Source: an uncultured Clostridium sp. (lineage in GTDB: Bacteria > Bacillota > Clostridia > TANB77 > CAG-508). From it: a stretch of 64,000 nucleotides of DNA. A model generated the notes under the pieces. It ran no database searches. It saw only the letters and a program-made list of their open reading frames with translations, and was not told the DNA's origin. The first letter of the stretch is position 1, and each line of letters opens with the position of its first letter. The translations under genes were made by a program, and so were the position numbers. Where the stretch lies: the NCBI GenBank assembly GCA_948468045.1, contig CAOKGO010000004.1, positions 3,222-67,221 on the forward strand. The letters run 5' to 3'. Positions 1,474 to 63,135 of the stretch are shown here, piece by piece.

Positions 1474-1530
1474 CACATTTTGCAGAAAATTGCTTTGCAA
1501 TTTTCGCAAGCGAACAAAGACGGGGCCTGT
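1474..1530. repeat. mosaic repeat locus (module B plus a truncated C)
   Basis: cattttgcagaaaattgctttgcaattttcgcaagcgaacaaagacgggg. Confidence 0.7.
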
Positions 1531-1676
1531 AAATAATCCAAAAGAGAATTTTAGAAACAAAAAATCTTCAAAAACTGTTGTAAAATTTCAAATTATTGAT
1601 ATAATAAGAAAGACAACAGAAAAAGAAGATTTTTTATTTTAACAGTATGATAAAAAAAGAGAAAGGGAGAATAAAA

Positions 1677-2822
1677 ATGGTAAAAAAAGTAGGGATTTTA
1701 GCAAATGGTGGAGATGTATCAGGATTTAATGCAGTTATTAGAGCTATTGTAAAAACAGCTGAAAATAGTGGGGTTGAATGTTATGGAATTATGGATGGAT
1801 ACAATGGCTTATTAAAAAAAGATTTCGAATTACTATCAACAGCAGCAAATGGGGAAGCAACAGGAATATTGCCAAAAGGTGGTTCTATTATTGGTTCTTC
1901 TACAAATGCGAACTTATTTAATTACAAAATAGTAAATGAAGATGGAAGTGTAGAATATAAAGACATGTCAGGACAAGCAATACAAAACATCAAAGACTTT
2001 GGGTTTGACTGTATATTTACATTAGGTGGAGATGGAACACAAAAATCAGCAAGAGATTTTTCAACTAAAGGTGTTAATGTAATTGGAGTTCCTAAAACAA
2101 TTGACAATGATGTTGCTTGTACAGAAATCACTTTTGGATACAATACAGCGGTATCAGTTGCTATGGAAGCATTAGATAGATTACACACAACAGGAGCAAC
2201 ACATCATAGAATTATGGTACTAGAAGTAATGGGAAGATATGCAGGGTGGATTGCATTAGAAGCAGCAATTGCAGGTGGAGCAGATGTAGCATTAATACCA
2301 GAAATTCCTTATGATATTAATAGAGTAGCTGAAAAGATTAATAATAGAAGAAAAAGAGGAAAGAATTTTAGTGTTGTAGTAGTAGCAGAAGGAGCAAAAC
2401 CAAAAGATGGAGAAATTACTATAATGGGAACAAGAGACAACGGAGCAGGTGTAGACAACACAAAATTAGGTGGAATAGGTCAAGTACTTGCTAAACAATT
2501 AGAAGAAATGACAGGATTAGAAGCAAGAAATACAACTTTAGGTTATATGCAAAGAGGTGGAACTCCAACAGCATTTGACAGAGTATTATCTACAAAATAT
2601 GGAACCAAAGCTATGGAACTTGCACTAGAGGGTAAATTCGGAACATTAGCTATTATAAAAAATGGAAAATTAGATAGTGTTTCTTTAGAAGAAGTAGTAG
2701 GAAGAAACACAAAAATAGGAGCAGTATCAGGAAATACAGATGAAAGTAACTTAAGAAAAGTAGAAATGGATGATGATTTAATAAAAACAGCAAGAGATAT
2801 TGGAATTAATTTAGGAGACTAA
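1677..2822 (+). CDS. pfkA: 6-phosphofructokinase
   Basis: PFK motifs GGDVSGFNA, TLGGDGT, PKTIDND and MGRYAG. SD GGGAGA lies 6 nt before ATG 1677; the ORF opens at 1647. Confidence 0.9.
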   Translation: MVKKVGILANGGDVSGFNAVIRAIVKTAENSGVECYGIMDGYNGLLKKDFELLSTAANGEATGILPKGGSIIGSSTNANLFNYKIVNEDGSVEYKDMSGQAIQNIKDFGFDCIFTLGGDGTQKSARDFSTKGVNVIGVPKTIDNDVACTEITFGYNTAVSVAMEALDRLHTTGATHHRIMVLEVMGRYAGWIALEAAIAGGADVALIPEIPYDINRVAEKINNRRKRGKNFSVVVVAEGAKPKDGEITIMGTRDNGAGVDNTKLGGIGQVLAKQLEEMTGLEARNTTLGYMQRGGTPTAFDRVLSTKYGTKAMELALEGKFGTLAIIKNGKLDSVSLEEVVGRNTKIGAVSGNTDESNLRKVEMDDDLIKTARDIGINLGD

Positions 2823-2851
2823 TTAGTTTTCAAATTAGGAATATTTAAGGC

Positions 2852-2948
2852 AAATCTTACTTCTTTATATATTTATAAATAATTTAAGAATTTTAACTTT
2901 ATTACAGTTACATTCATAATTTATTTAAAATATAAAGAAGTAAGATTT
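2852..2948. terminator. long perfect hairpin after pfkA (19-bp arms, about 59-nt loop)
   Basis: aaatcttacttctttatat (2852-2870) is the exact reverse complement of atataaagaagtaagattt (2930-2948). Confidence 0.45.
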
Positions 2949-2999
2949 AAACGTCAAAGACGCTGATTTTTAGTTGATAGCAATTAAGGAGAAAAAAGT

Positions 3000-60800: not shown

Positions 60801-60829
60801 TGTCAAAATTTGCATTATTCTCTTTTTTT
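60791..60829 (+). terminator. rho-independent terminator
   Basis: agagaaataatg-tcaaaatttg-cattattctct followed by ttttttt. Confidence 0.65.
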
Positions 60830-60926
60830 CTTGCTACCTTATAATAAAAAATATGGCGAATAACACATATCAAAAGAAGATAAAGAAGATTTTTAATTTG
60901 TATCTTTTGTAAAATTTTGAAACTTT

Positions 60927-61514
60927 TTGGCAACATTTAACGATTATATAATAAAGGGGGAAGAAATTTGGGTACTCGGATTAACAACAAAAGATTTTGA
61001 AGAAATATACAAAAACACATATAAACAAACATTAAAATTTATAATAGTAAAATGTAATAATATAGATGATATTAACGATATAATACAAGATACATATATA
61101 GAATTACTGAAAATAATAAAAAAGAAACAACCACTAGAAATAGATAATCTTGATAGCTATATTTTAGGAATTGCAAACAATATAATAAAAAGGCACTACT
61201 ATAAAAAGAAAAAAGAAAATATAGTTTACTATTATTCAAAATACGAAAATGATATAGAACTAGAAATAAAAGATGATTTCGATTTAGAGCAAGATATTAT
61301 TACTAAAGAAAATGTATCACAAGTATGGGAATACTTAAAAAATAAAAACATTGAAGTAACAAAGATTTTTTATTTATATTTTGCGTTAGGTTTAAAAATA
61401 TCAGACATATCAAAAGAACTAGAAATGACAGAATCAAATGTTAAAAATAAGATTTATAGAACCTTAAAAGAATTAAAAAAATATATACAGAAAGGATGTG
61501 AAAAGTATGATTAA
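60927..61514 (+). CDS. sigma-70 family (ECF-like) RNA polymerase sigma factor
   Basis: Region 2 (IIQDTYIELLK) and region 4 HTH (LKISDISKELEMTESNVKNKIYRTLKELK). TTG 60927 has no SD. An alternative start at TTG 60968, after SD AAGGGGG, needs a +1 shift at CGG 60977. Confidence 0.65.
   Translation: MATFNDYIIKGEEIWVLGLTTKDFEEIYKNTYKQTLKFIIVKCNNIDDINDIIQDTYIELLKIIKKKQPLEIDNLDSYILGIANNIIKRHYYKKKKENIVYYYSKYENDIELEIKDDFDLEQDIITKENVSQVWEYLKNKNIEVTKIFYLYFALGLKISDISKELEMTESNVKNKIYRTLKELKKYIQKGCEKYD
60977..60980 (+). other. candidate +1 recoding site, ACT C GGA (codon 4 of the alternative start)
   Basis: TTG GGT ACT C|GGA TTA ACA would give MGT|GLTTKDFEEIYK. The zero frame stops 7 codons later. Confidence 0.35.
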
Positions 61515-62622
61515 CAAAGCCTTTAGTGAATATATGGAACAAATAAACAATATGGAAACTAATTATAAAAAAATTATATCAAAAAAGAAAGGAGTGGTTA
61601 AAATGAAAAAGAAAATCTTAAATATTGCAGCAGTATTTCTAGCAGTTATAATTCTAGGAGTTGCATCTACACAAATTTATGCAAAAATCCAATGGGACAT
61701 TCAATTTAAGGAATATCAAAATAGGGAAGTAATAGAAGCAAAAGCAAACATAGAAGAACTTATAAATATGGAATATGTTAAACAAGACGGAATTAGTGCT
61801 AAGGTGGATTCTATTATACTAACAGATGATTCATTTGACGCAAATATTAGTTTCAAATTTGATGAAGATAAAGTTGTAAATTCAGAGACATTTGGTTATG
61901 GGTATGCAATTTATGATGAAAACAAAAACATTTATCAAATATTTTCTAGGATGCATTTAGATAATAGCCAAAAATTTGACAATACAGTGCACTTTATTTA
62001 TAAAGAACTAGGTATTGACTATAACAAAAAAGATATTTATGCAAAAATATTATCAGATAGTTCAGGTATTAGTAATTTAGAAACAAATGCAGAAGATAAA
62101 ACTATTGTAACAAATGTTAATTTAAGAGCAACAGATAACTTTCCAATAAGCAAAAAAATTTACATCAGAATTTTTGATTTAGGTTATGTAATGCTAGATA
62201 GCAAAACAAGAACTACTGAAAACTTTACAATATCAGATGCAGAATGGATTTTTGAAATTGATGTACCAGAGAAATTAAATGATAGAAAAACAGTAGAACT
62301 AAAACTTGAAAGTGAAATACCAGGAATAGAAATACAAAAACTTACCTTAACAGAAACTGGAATGGTATTAAAATTCAAATCAGAAGAATATTTAGAATTA
62401 ATTTCAGCTGGAAAAGATATGAATGGAAATGAATTTTTAGAAGCATGTAGAAATAAGTTGAACATAACAGATGGGGAGGGTAAAGTGTATCAAGAGCTAG
62501 GAGCTGGAACAACTGGAACAGATAGAGGCTTTAAAATTACTTTAGATGCAAAAAAAGAAGACTTAAGCAAAAAGTTGTATCTAAATTATAATAACTATAC
62601 AAGAGAATTGATAGAAAAATAA
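61507..62622 (+). CDS. putative anti-sigma factor / membrane-anchored protein
   Basis: It overlaps the end of the sigma gene. A short cytoplasmic N-terminus is followed by one TM segment (ILNIAAVFLAVIILGV) and an extracytoplasmic domain. Confidence 0.45.
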   Translation: MINKAFSEYMEQINNMETNYKKIISKKKGVVKMKKKILNIAAVFLAVIILGVASTQIYAKIQWDIQFKEYQNREVIEAKANIEELINMEYVKQDGISAKVDSIILTDDSFDANISFKFDEDKVVNSETFGYGYAIYDENKNIYQIFSRMHLDNSQKFDNTVHFIYKELGIDYNKKDIYAKILSDSSGISNLETNAEDKTIVTNVNLRATDNFPISKKIYIRIFDLGYVMLDSKTRTTENFTISDAEWIFEIDVPEKLNDRKTVELKLESEIPGIEIQKLTLTETGMVLKFKSEEYLELISAGKDMNGNEFLEACRNKLNITDGEGKVYQELGAGTTGTDRGFKITLDAKKEDLSKKLYLNYNNYTRELIEK

Positions 62623-62671
62623 GGGTTACACAATATAAGATTTAGGGTTATTTTATAGCCTTAAATCTTTT

Positions 62672-63135
62672 TATATTATAGGAAAGTTCTCCGAACTTCC
62701 TATAATATAAAGAGTTCCACGAAAAAATTGCAAAGCAATTTTCGTGGGCGAACAAAGACGTGGCATGAAAAGTTATCTAAAAGGTTATAAAATTTTAATC
62801 ATGCCACTTTTGTTATATTATAGGAAAGTTCTCCGAACTTCCTATAATATAAAGAGTTCCACAGAAAATTGCAAAGCAATTTTCGCGGGCGAACAAAGAC
62901 GTGGCATGAAAAGTTATCTAAAAGGTTATAAAATTTTAATCATGCCACTTTTGTTATATTATAGGAAAGTTCTCCGAACTTCCTATAATATAAAGAGTTC
63001 CACAGAAAATTGCAAAGCAATTTTCGCGGGCGAACAAAGACGTGGCATGAAAAGTTATCTAAAAGGTTATAAAATTTTAATCATGCCACTTTTGTTCTAT
63101 TATAGAAAAAGTCTATGATTTTCTTATAAAAAATC
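62672..63135. repeat. tandem array of 3 x about 141 bp mosaic units (A-B-C), plus a terminal E-like hairpin
   Basis: Unit starts lie at 62672, 62814 and 62955. The units are nearly identical: tatattataggaaagttctccgaacttcctataatataaagagttccacagaaaattgcaaagcaattttcgcgggcgaacaaagacgtggcatga...tcatgccacttttgt. Confidence 0.9.

What the first reader, a model, noticed from the sequence alone, without database searches (positions are those of the whole stretch)
1474..63135. Modular 'mosaic' family of intergenic palindromic repeats (six hairpin modules in shuffled order and orientation)
At least ten intergenic loci are built from the same small set of imperfect hairpin modules. The loci are 1474, 18293, 22010, 24515, 26234, 34995, 36388, 37937, 48641 and 62672. 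Module A is tataggaaagttctccgaacttcctata. Module B is gttccacagaaaattgcWWWgcaattttcgcg. Module C is gaacaaagacgtggcatga-N30-tcatgccacttttgttc. Module D is gccaaatttgcWWWgcaaatttg. Module E is gttataggaaaaatcWWWgatttttcctataac. Module F is cgtgggctga-N40-tcagcccac. The modules occur in different combinations and on either strand, always outside genes, often right after stop codons. They are distinctly more GC-rich than their surroundings. This architecture resembles BIME/REP-type mosaic elements of enterobacteria, but I do not recognise these sequences as a described family.
Basis: seen in the sequence. Interest (0 to 1): 0.65.

Follow-up and report, generated by a model that had tools for sequence, protein, structure and literature searches.

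The report
Terminator-homing three-hairpin intergenic repeat family
The flagged sequences are copies of an apparently undescribed, roughly 145-base non-coding mobile DNA repeat built from three hairpins in a fixed order; it has multiplied between the genes of uncultured low-GC gut Clostridia, almost always lands directly behind a transcription terminator, and the enzyme that moves it is still unknown.

Summary
All ten loci and all six modules are present and far beyond chance. The "shuffled mosaic" reading is wrong, though. The modules are alternative versions of three hairpins that always come in one order: hp1 (A, E or W), hp2 (B or D), hp3 (C or F). Together they form a 141-150-nt unit that occurs singly or in tandem. 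Inverted arrangements arise only where two units share a palindromic hairpin.

The assembly holds at least 220 loci and about 180 full hp2-hp3 pairs. That is 1.7% of the genome and about 9% of its non-coding DNA. Full units occur in 72 of 151 species of the genus and in eight of 32 genera of the order.

Stems are kept by compensatory changes at 29 of 41 pairs across species. Units abut a hairpin plus T-run (an intrinsic terminator, another repeat, or the previous unit). They have no terminal inverted repeats or target duplications. They point with the leading strand 109:32.

Related strains in public mouse-gut metagenomes lack the insert at two window loci. Orthologous sites in other species are empty.

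The genome's three RAYT/TIRYT-like genes are flanked by three other repeat families. They show no link to this one.

Verdict: a new, non-autonomous mobile repeat of the REP/BOX/PATE kind. The mobilising enzyme is unidentified.

The parts
1442..1570 (+). Degenerate unit: hp2 type B (1482-1516) followed by a diverged hp3
   Evidence: R1 43 bits, E 8e-7; nhmmer B hit; pattern C with 3 mismatches at 1512
18253..18405 (+). Full unit with a W-type hp1 (ATAGGATTTGGGGACGGCCCCCAAATCCTAT), hp2 B (18304-18343) and hp3 C (18339-18404). It is followed by an unrelated X-family palindrome pair at 18527-18592
   Evidence: R1 131 bits
22011..22159 (-). Full chimeric unit: hp1 A (22116-22154), hp2 D (22072-22106), hp3 C (22012-22076)
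   Evidence: R1 161.5 bits
24508..24567 (.). Solo hp1 of E type (palindrome 24515-24547), directly behind the terminator hairpin of the upstream gene
   Evidence: R1 31.8 bits; sequence
26235..26526 (-). 288-nt composite. A-B-F runs on the minus strand (A 26483-26521, B 26443-26480, F 26378-26441). E-D-F runs on the plus strand and shares the same F (E 26299-26335, D 26348-26382). C lies on the minus strand (26237-26300). The composite sits between a stop codon and the recA promoter
   Evidence: Three overlapping R1 matches of 116, 92 and 89 bits. The whole block is absent from a related strain's contig (joint 26234->26523) and from the 23 other-species orthologous loci whose fetched DNA reaches past the gene's stop, of 29 fetched; 7 of these were read by eye
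34995..35117 (-). Decayed unit in a convergent intergenic region
   Evidence: R1 34.7 bits, E 4e-5; sequence
36363..36509 (+). Unit with hp2 D (36392-36422) and a diverged hp3 C (36418-36473), followed by a solo E-type hp1 (36478-36509)
   Evidence: R1 50.4 and 23.9 bits
37933..38079 (+). Single A-B-C unit abutting the T-run of the terminator of the gene upstream (its product reads as ribosomal protein L31, rpmE; named by eye from the reading frame, no search run)
   Evidence: R1 118.6 bits. The relative G007 has the terminator but no unit. A related strain in three runs skips 37944->38077
48601..48893 (+). Composite of the same design as 26235-26526, in the opposite orientation: B 48647-48686, F 48684-48749 (shared), inverted D 48745-48779, E 48793-48825, C 48827-48892
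   Evidence: R1 115, 92.5 and 49.8 bits
62668..63129 (+). Three tandem A-B-C units of 141 nt, 98-100% identical to one another, behind a terminator-like hairpin. A terminal solo hp1 lies at 63100-63129
   Evidence: TRF period 141, 3.1 copies, 98% matches; R1 174, 160 and 117 bits

Best explanation
These are copies of a non-autonomous mobile DNA element. The unit is 141-150 nt and carries three hairpins in fixed order: hp1, hp2, hp3. Each hairpin exists in two or more paralogous versions that recombine, which gives the mosaic look.

Shown:
- The unit inserts as a block immediately 3' of a hairpin followed by a T-run. That hairpin can be an intrinsic terminator, another hairpin repeat, or the hp3 plus CTTTTGTT end of a previous unit. 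The last case explains the head-to-tail arrays.
- The unit has no terminal inverted repeats and no target duplication.

Inferred:
- The hairpins are the recognition features of the mobilising machinery, which is why only copies with intact stems spread.
- Insertion most likely happens on single-stranded DNA at the replication fork. The unit's top strand lies on the lagging-strand template, as for IS200/IS605-type peel-and-paste elements.
- The enzyme acts in trans and is not identified. The Y1 (IS200/RAYT/TIRYT) genes of these genomes are not supported as the mobiliser.
- Sitting behind terminators makes the insertions nearly neutral, so they accumulate.
For: Grammar and abundance: 220 loci in fixed order, 76 B-C, 81 D-C, 8 B-F and 13 D-F pairs. 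The family makes up 1.7% of the assembly.

Recent spread: dispersed copies are 98-100% identical on different contigs.

Mobility:
- No family module is found at any of the 29 other-species loci fetched around the gene upstream of recA; 23 of those loci reach past that gene's stop.
- Close relatives show a short A-rich spacer where the window has 288 nt.
- A related strain's contig joins 26234 to 26523.
- Contigs in three independent runs skip 37944-38077.
- G007 has a bare terminator at the orthologous site downstream of the gene read as rpmE.

Target:
- 69% of left flanks have at least 6 T in their last 8 nt, against 6.5% in background and 11% on the right flank.
- 55% have a hairpin of -8 kcal/mol or stronger just upstream, against 14% for generic intergenic T6 runs.
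- The same hairpin-TTTTT|ATATTAT junction is seen at about 30 loci from other species.

Structure under selection:
- Within this genome 91% of cells are paired and 88 cells carry a change on both sides, against 35 in shuffles.
- Across about 33 species 96.3% of cells are paired against 78.9% in shuffles, and 29 of 41 pairs show compensatory changes.
- A G.T wobble in hp3 is conserved in 28 of 37 sequences, which marks the top strand as the folding strand.

Strand bias: the top strand lies on the G-rich (leading-sequence) strand 109:32 (p 5e-11). In convergent and divergent regions, where transcription direction cannot explain the bias, the ratio is 34:4.

No TIR or TSD is visible in the flanks.

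Patchy distribution: 72 of 151 species of the genus and 8 of 32 genera of the order carry the family.
Against: - No mobilising enzyme was found. Y1_Tnp genes are equally frequent in genomes with the family (59/72) and without it (64/79).
- The C33-type RAYT-like clade is present in 31/72 genomes with the family and 24/79 without, which is not significant.
- None of 31 RAYT-like loci in other species has a unit within 1.5 kb.
- G164 has no Y1 hit at 94% completeness, yet its dispersed copies are up to 100% identical.
- No IS110 or IS91 transposase is present, and no full-length parent element with these ends exists in this genome.
- The rpmE 'empty' allele keeps about 17 nt of the element's two ends. 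It is therefore an internal deletion or a footprint, not the seamless site expected from peel-and-paste excision.
- The strand bias is partly confounded with gene orientation, because 85% of genes are co-oriented with replication.
- The cross-species alignment was fitted to the model's structure, which favours pairing.
Confidence: 0.6

Rival explanations
1. The unit is a functional structured RNA. It could be a 3'-UTR stabiliser, a back-up terminator or a small RNA transcribed with or after the upstream gene. On this reading it is kept by host selection rather than by mobility.
For: Covariation across species is very strong, with a conserved G.U wobble on the strand that is usually co-oriented with the upstream gene. 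73% of units in tandem-gene contexts point the same way as the genes. Contigs from RNA-labelled runs contain the repeat. hp3 plus CTTTTGTT looks loosely terminator-like.
Against: Units lie behind, not in front of, the terminator T-run, so most would be transcribed only by read-through. No promoter is conserved in front of them. About a quarter are antisense to both neighbours, for example the recA locus. Presence or absence varies between strains, and orthologous sites are empty in other species. Tandem arrays and decayed copies are typical of selfish repeats. There is no Rfam match. The RNA-run depth sums all copies and may contain DNA, so it is uninformative.
Confidence: 0.12
2. It is a true REP/BIME (REPIN)-type family. 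On this reading it is mobilised by one of the genome's three RAYT/TIRYT-like Y1 transposases, for example those on C28 and C33, each of which has a unit just upstream.
For: The genome encodes three proteins with a Y1_Tnp domain and a C-terminal HTH. They match REP-associated tyrosine transposase (NF047646) below its cut-off. An A-D-F unit lies directly upstream of the C28 gene and a B-C unit upstream of the C33 gene, both in the gene's orientation. The absence of TIR and TSD, the hairpins and the strand bias are Y1-like features.
Against: Each of these genes is flanked by a different repeat family. Z flanks the C47 gene on both sides, inverted. X flanks the C28 gene on both sides. Y lies behind the C33 gene. 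There is no co-occurrence across 151 genomes. None of 31 orthologous RAYT loci in other species has a unit nearby. Genomes without any Y1 hit hold near-identical copies. With one locus per 8 kb, adjacency at two of three genes is not surprising.
Confidence: 0.1
3. The family no longer transposes. Its present pattern reflects only replication slippage, unequal crossing-over and gene conversion between old copies, with homologous recombination moving blocks between strains.
For: Tandem arrays of 98-100% identical units occur. Hairpin types recombine, giving chimeric units such as A-D-C and E-B-C. No transposase was found. The rpmE variant allele is an internal deletion that retains both ends.
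Against: Near-identical copies sit at many unlinked single-copy sites on different contigs. Each abuts a different terminator. Orthologous sites are cleanly empty in a related strain (recA site only) and in other species. The junction position is the same to the nucleotide at about 100 unrelated terminators and in about 30 species. That needs a targeted insertion step.
Confidence: 0.08

Closest known systems
BOX elements of Streptococcus pneumoniae and S. suis (boxA-boxB-boxC; Croucher et al. 2011, PMC3049150)
   Same: Both are composite, non-coding, high-copy intergenic repeats made of a few modules in a fixed 5'-3' order, with modules optional or repeated. Both fold into stable stem-loops and are enriched downstream of genes. 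Related species carry alternative module sets, such as boxD, boxE and boxF in S. suis.
   Different: BOX elements vary by the number of the middle module and have terminal inverted repeats resembling those of ISSpn2. Here the whole three-hairpin unit is what repeats, there are no TIRs, and the unit is welded to a terminator T-run. The host lineage is different, and sequence relatedness to BOX was not tested.
Non-autonomous derivatives of IS200/IS605 elements (palindrome-associated transposable elements) and IS608/ISDra2 peel-and-paste transposition (PMC5027513, PMC3597680)
   Same: Neither has TIRs or TSDs. Both have subterminal hairpins at the two ends. Both insert 3' of a short conserved sequence. 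Both show an orientation bias that puts the active strand on the lagging-strand template.
   Different: The left and right hairpins are unrelated here, and there is a third, middle hairpin. The target includes a hairpin plus T-run rather than a tetra- or pentanucleotide alone. No IS200/IS605 copy with matching ends exists, and Y1 genes do not co-occur with the family. One variant allele retains both ends instead of being seamless.
REP/BIME/REPIN elements with RAYT (TnpA-REP) transposases (PMC3333891, PMC3116915, PMC6006769)
   Same: Both are abundant intergenic palindromes enriched at 3' ends of genes. In both, hairpins are conserved by compensatory change, and mosaic clusters are built from variant modules.
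   Different: REPs are single hairpins of 20-40 nt with a conserved head, usually in inverted pairs, and they flank a single-copy RAYT. None of these features holds here. This genome does have such systems, the X, Y and Z families with three TIRYT-like genes, but they are separate from the A-F family.
Class C bacterial group II introns and SPRITE repeats (terminator-associated elements; SPRITE in PMC3049150)
   Same: Class C introns (from my own knowledge) home to the position just after intrinsic terminators, in the terminator's orientation. SPRITE repeats are terminator-like and cluster at 3' ends of genes.
   Different: The unit has no intron domains and no reverse transcriptase partner. 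The only RT in the genome sits beside an Avd-like ORF, read by eye as a DGR. SPRITE is a single long hairpin plus a T-tract, not a three-hairpin unit placed behind an existing terminator.

Membership tests
REP/BIME (REPIN-RAYT system) | A short (20-40 nt) imperfect palindrome with a conserved 5' head (such as GTAG) as the basic repeat | tested here: not met
   The unit is 141-150 nt with three different hairpins, and no conserved head tetranucleotide is present
REP/BIME (REPIN-RAYT system) | Repeats arranged as inverted pairs or in alternating orientation | tested here: not met
   Hairpins are in direct, fixed order in nearly all of the 220 loci. Inverted arrangements occur only in about 6 composites that share hp3 F
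REP/BIME (REPIN-RAYT system) | A cognate RAYT gene flanked by the repeats and co-distributed with them | tested here: not met
   RAYT-like genes are flanked by the X, Y and Z families. There is no co-occurrence. None of 31 RAYT loci in other species carries a unit
BOX-type composite repeats | Modules in a fixed order with optional or repeated modules, non-coding, intergenic | tested here: met
   The order hp1-hp2-hp3 is fixed. hp1 is optional, and there are alternative versions of each module
BOX-type composite repeats | Terminal inverted repeats shared with an IS element (ISSpn2-like) | tested here: not met
   The left end ATATTATAGG and the right end CTTTTGTTC are not inverted copies of each other. 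No IS with these ends is present
BOX-type composite repeats | Sequence homology to boxA, boxB or boxC | not tested
   No BOX model or sequence was compared. The Rfam scan gave no hit
MITE (DDE-transposon derived) | Terminal inverted repeats and target-site duplication | tested here: not met
   The flanks of about 80 left ends and 120 right ends show neither
IS200/IS605-derived non-autonomous elements | No TIR and no TSD; hairpins at both ends; insertion 3' of a conserved short target | tested here: met
   The target is a T-run behind a hairpin
IS200/IS605-derived non-autonomous elements | Orientation bias relative to replication (active strand on the lagging-strand template) | tested here: met
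   The ratio is 109:32 overall and 34:4 in convergent and divergent regions. The leading strand was inferred from GC skew on draft contigs
IS200/IS605-derived non-autonomous elements | A parent IS with the same ends encoding TnpA, co-distributed with the small elements | tested here: not met
   Only two IS200 remnants are present (C48, C35), with no units nearby. No hp1/hp2...hp3 pair lies at IS-like spacing. There is no co-occurrence
IS200/IS605-derived non-autonomous elements | Seamless excision | tested here: inconclusive
   The recA site has a clean empty allele. The rpmE variant retains ATATTAT..CTTTTGTT
Known structured RNA families (Rfam 15) | A match to a curated covariance model | tested here: not met
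   There are 0 matches at gathering score over the window. At E<=1 only chance-level hits appear on the array

The most novel reading that the evidence does not exclude
The family may be moved by a machinery that is not one of the known transposase classes. Possibilities are a host-encoded or still unrecognised single-strand DNA enzyme, or a replication or repair side reaction. This machinery would read 'any hairpin followed by a T-run' as a landing pad. The element's own A-rich tail after hp1 (ATAAAG / CAACAAAAA) would pair with the target T-run to set the cut site. That would be a new, structure-guided way of homing to transcription terminators. It would operate across a whole family of gut Clostridia that also carry several other hairpin-repeat families.
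Probability: 0.12. Interest if true: 0.8.

Novelty: new variant of a known kind. Interest (0 to 1): 0.5.

Why it matters
Small interspersed repeats shape bacterial genomes and break metagenome assemblies. Here 27 of 138 contig ends fall in this family.

The family offers an unusually clean case of terminator-directed insertion. The junction is conserved to the nucleotide in dozens of uncultured species. Three hairpins are under strong structural selection. No known transposase is attached.

If the mobilising activity were found, it would either extend the reach of single-strand HUH transposition to hairpin-plus-T-run targets or reveal a new mechanism.

In practical terms, the covariance model built here can be used to mask or annotate these repeats in low-GC gut Clostridia MAGs. 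It would also avoid calling spurious ORFs such as 62744-63118.

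Tried and rejected
- **Fusobacterium origin.** I guessed this from the 27% GC. It is wrong: the pattern scan and the sequencing runs place the genome among uncultured mouse-gut Clostridia.
- **Known RNA family.** None was found.
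- **Phage or plasmid origin.** No match was found.
- **RAYT/TIRYT as mobiliser.** Rejected on flank identity, co-occurrence and orthologous loci.
- **IS200 as mobiliser.** Only remnants are present, with no units nearby and no co-occurrence.
- **IS110, IS91, or a reverse transcriptase with group II intron.** IS110 and IS91 are absent, and the RT sits beside an Avd-like ORF and a pilin-like target gene, which I read by eye as a DGR.
- **Multi-copy proteins as hidden transposases.** Only serine recombinases, relaxases and pilin-like proteins turned up.
- **A full-length parent element.** None exists at IS-like spacing.
- **Excision footprints genome-wide.** The ATATTAT..CTTTTGTT remnant pattern is no more frequent than in the control.
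- **Strand-biased wobble mismatches.** Apart from one fixed G.T, sporadic G.T and A.C counts are balanced.
- **Laying DNA contigs over 20 kb to find polymorphisms.** Contigs break at the repeats, so this showed little beyond excess summed depth at the repeats. Short targeted stretches worked.
- **RNA-run depth.** It is uninformative because all copies sum and DNA may be present.

Full report
**Observation.**
Patterns for A, C and E match at the listed loci with 0-3 mismatches, and none is expected in shuffles.
- Repeat finders recover B, D and a 141-nt tandem array at 62671-63109.
- The window is contig C4:3222-67221 of a 1.74-Mb, 27.6% GC draft genome of 69 contigs.
- A pattern scan of public genomes hits MAGs labelled uncultured Clostridium, Clostridia or Ca. 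Scatovivens.
- The window itself is held by mouse-gut metagenome runs. In four independent runs, the window bins that contain repeats have summed contig depth about 6-50 times that of neighbouring single-copy bins, so the copies are not assembly duplications. That depth sums contigs from every organism in the run, so it is not a copy number.

**Anatomy.**
- Genome-wide profile searches give A 173, B 108, C 208, D 116 and F 22 non-overlapping hits in 220 loci.
- The architectures are not shuffled. The commonest are A-B-C (30), D-C (28), A-D-C (11) and their tandem multiples.
- hp2 (B or D) is followed by hp3 (C or F) on the same strand in 178 cases: B-C 76, D-C 81, D-F 13, B-F 8.
- Loci that seem to start with D nearly always carry an E-type hairpin in front. 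E is therefore the hp1 of the D-type subfamily.
- A third hp1 version, W (ATAGGATTTGGGGACGGCCCC..), occurs at 18293.
- Type 1 (A-B-C) and type 2 (E-D-C) units align over their whole length at about 70% identity. Type 1 copies are younger (median pairwise identity 88%) than type 2 copies (71%). Chimeras such as A-D-C and E-B-C exist.
- The two 'either-strand' composites in the window (26235-26526 and 48601-48893) consist of two units in opposite orientation that share the palindromic hp3 F, plus an E-C part.
- The family covers 30 kb. That is 1.7% of the assembly and 8.7% of non-coding DNA. Its GC is 31% against 25.5% for other non-coding DNA. It accounts for 27 of 138 contig ends.

**Structure.**
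- A unit folds into three hairpins on either strand, with z-scores of -7.5 and -8.8.
- In 33 diverged units of this genome, 91.4% of cells pair against 85.5% in shuffles. 88 cells carry changes on both sides against 35 expected (alignment A1).
- I built a covariance model, R1, from these units. Aligning its matches from about 33 other species gives 96.3% paired cells against 78.9% in shuffles and 40-54% for slid partners. 29 of 41 pairs show compensatory changes. This alignment was fitted to the model, which favours pairing.
- Other species carry further stem versions, for example hp2 AATTTTAC/GTAAAATT in G164.
- A G.T wobble in the outer hp3 stem is conserved in 28 of 37 sequences. That marks the top strand as the one that folds. 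Sporadic G.T and A.C mismatches are otherwise balanced.

**Where the units sit.**
- Loci are enriched in convergent regions (20% against 10% background) and depleted in divergent regions (7% against 10%).
- The left end abuts a T-run. 69% of left flanks have at least 6 T in the last 8 nt, against 6.5% in background and 11% on the right flank.
- 55% have a strong hairpin just before that T-run, against 14% for generic intergenic T6 runs.
- The hairpin is usually the upstream gene's terminator. It can also be a W or Y repeat, or the hp3 plus CTTTTGTT end of a previous unit. The last case accounts for the arrays.
- The same hairpin-TTTTT|AT(A/G)TTAT junction is seen at about 30 loci from other species.
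- There are no terminal inverted repeats and no target duplications.

**Mobility.**
- Dispersed copies on different contigs are 98-100% identical.
- No family module is found at any of the 29 other-species loci fetched around the gene upstream of recA. 23 of those loci reach past that gene's stop; six stop at a contig end near it. I read seven by eye. Five (L093, L094, L096, L100, L106) show a short A-rich spacer before the recA promoter. Two (L095, L101) carry different palindromic insertions at the same place.
- A contig of a related strain in run X29 joins 26234 to 26523 and so lacks the whole 288-nt composite.
- Behind the gene I read as rpmE, relative G007 has the terminator and T-run only.
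- A related strain in three independent runs skips 37944-38077. It retains ATATTAT-TA-CTTTTGTT, which is both extreme ends of the unit. Such remnants are not common elsewhere in the genome.

**Strand bias.**
- The unit's top strand lies on the G-rich strand in 109 loci and on the other strand in 32 (p 5e-11). The G-rich strand has the sequence of the leading strand, which is also the sequence of the lagging-strand template.
- In convergent and divergent regions, where transcription direction cannot explain the bias, the ratio is 34:4.
- This is the signature described for single-strand transposition at replication forks (PMC5027513, PMC6006769).
- Here it rests on GC-skew inference from draft contigs, and 85% of genes are co-oriented with that strand.

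**Search for the enzyme.**
- The genome has five Y1_Tnp matches: two IS200 remnants and three proteins of 250-270 aa. The three have an N-terminal Y1 domain and a C-terminal HTH, and they match REP-associated tyrosine transposase below its cut-off. This is the TIRYT / subclass 2.1 type of PMC6006769.
- Each of the three is flanked by a different repeat family:
  - Z (ATGTCGTGTTGGGGACGTTTCT, about 66 copies) flanks the C47 gene on both sides, inverted.
  - X (GGGCATAATTGGGACAGGCACTGA, about 96 copies) flanks the C28 gene on both sides.
  - Y (TGAGACAATAGGGACAGGTCTCA, about 92 copies) lies behind the C33 gene.
- Units of the A-F family lie upstream of the C28 and C33 genes. With one locus per 8 kb this is weak evidence.
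- Adjacency is not conserved. None of 31 RAYT-like loci from other species has a unit within 1.5 kb.
- Across 151 species of the genus, full units occur in 72 and Y1 genes in 123. That is 59/72 against 64/79, so there is no association.
- The C33-type clade is present in 31/72 against 24/79.
- G164 has no Y1 hit at 94% completeness, yet its dispersed copies are up to 100% identical.
- IS110 and IS91 transposases are absent. The only reverse transcriptase lies next to an Avd-like ORF and a pilin-like target gene, which I read by eye as a DGR.
- Multi-copy proteins are recombinases, relaxases and pilin-like proteins.
- No hp1/hp2...hp3 pair lies at IS-like spacing.

**Distribution.** Beyond the genus, R1 finds units in 29 of 201 sampled genomes of the order. 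These fall in eight of its 32 genera, including one genus of a second family. Rfam, the phage collection and the plasmid collection give nothing.

**Interpretation.**
- The data fit a selfish, non-autonomous mobile repeat that homes to hairpin-plus-T-run sites. Its three hairpins are needed for propagation.
- The lack of TIR and TSD, the end hairpins, the sequence- and structure-specific target and the strand bias all point to a single-strand, HUH-like mechanism.
- The expected Y1 partner is not supported, so the enzymatic step remains inferred.
- In grammar the family is closest to BOX elements (PMC3049150). In mechanism-like features it is closest to IS200/IS605-derived small elements. It fails defining features of REP/BIME, BOX, MITE and PATE membership (see the membership table).
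- Earlier notes of this scan on other windows of the same genome reached a similar reading. I treated them as leads only.
- New in this report: the order-wide distribution, the cross-species covariation, the strand-bias test, the strain-level empty alleles, and the negative co-occurrence tests for Y1 enzymes.

Noticed in passing
window 18527-18592 and 52730-52753; G000 contig C28:3200-5000: Separate palindromic family X (GGGCATAATTGGGACAGGCACTGA, about 96 copies genome-wide). It flanks, in inverted orientation, a 267-aa gene on contig C28 that encodes a Y1 domain plus an HTH (TIRYT/RAYT-like).
   Followed up: partly
window 11221-11243, 13265-13336, 30444-30555; G000 contig C33:18400-18500: Family Y (TGAGACAATAGGGACAGGTCTCA, about 92 copies), often as inverted pairs. 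One copy overlaps the stop of a second TIRYT-like gene on C33. Y hairpins plus a T-run also serve as landing pads for the three-hairpin units.
   Followed up: partly
window 50941-50962 and 53260-53281; G000 contig C47:7000-8200: Family Z (ATGTCGTGTTGGGGACGTTTCT, about 66 copies). Perfect inverted copies flank the third TIRYT-like gene on C47. X, Y, Z and W share a GGGAC(A/G)G or GGGGACG core. So this small genome holds three REP-like families, each paired with its own Y1 gene. The literature I read reported no REPs for subclass 2.1.
   Followed up: partly
window 22235-22315: Short ORF MPKYSNEFKLEVVKYCIEEHHSKYDA*. By eye it resembles the N-terminus of an IS3-family OrfA, so it may be a transposase remnant. 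It lies next to the unit at 22011-22159.
   Followed up: no
window 22373-24463 (repeats 22528-23705): A 696-aa ORF made largely of 96-, 129- and 417-nt coding tandem repeats rich in E and K. tblastn found no counterpart in the syntenic stretches fetched from G050, G007 and G019, which suggests a lineage-specific repeat protein inserted between conserved genes.
   Followed up: no
window 979-1154: A 21/42-nt in-frame tandem repeat (about 7 copies, motif ..W(E/G)(E/Q)NDKR..) inside ORF 925-1467.
   Followed up: no
L095 (G006:C3) and L101 (G048:C42), downstream of the ortholog of window gene 24648-26231: Other species carry different palindromic insertions at the same spot in front of the recA promoter. 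One is about 230 nt with ends ctagaatgttatattaaat / atttaatataacattctag. This site is a recurrent sink for unrelated hairpin elements in the genus.
   Followed up: no
G000 contig C41:3920-6764: Probable diversity-generating retroelement: a pilin-like target protein (464 aa), an Avd-like 120-aa ORF and a 336-aa reverse transcriptase. It lies near a relaxase gene.
   Followed up: no
window 37938-38077, in runs X10, X14 and X18: A related strain's allele behind rpmE keeps only ATATTAT+TA+CTTTTGTT of the unit, and it has a diverged terminator stem (changes at 37888-37913). It is unclear whether this is a deletion or an excision footprint.
   Followed up: partly
window 62744-63118: A 124-aa 'ORF' runs through the tandem array. 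The same spurious protein appears on contig C35. It is an artefact that gene callers are likely to annotate.
   Followed up: partly
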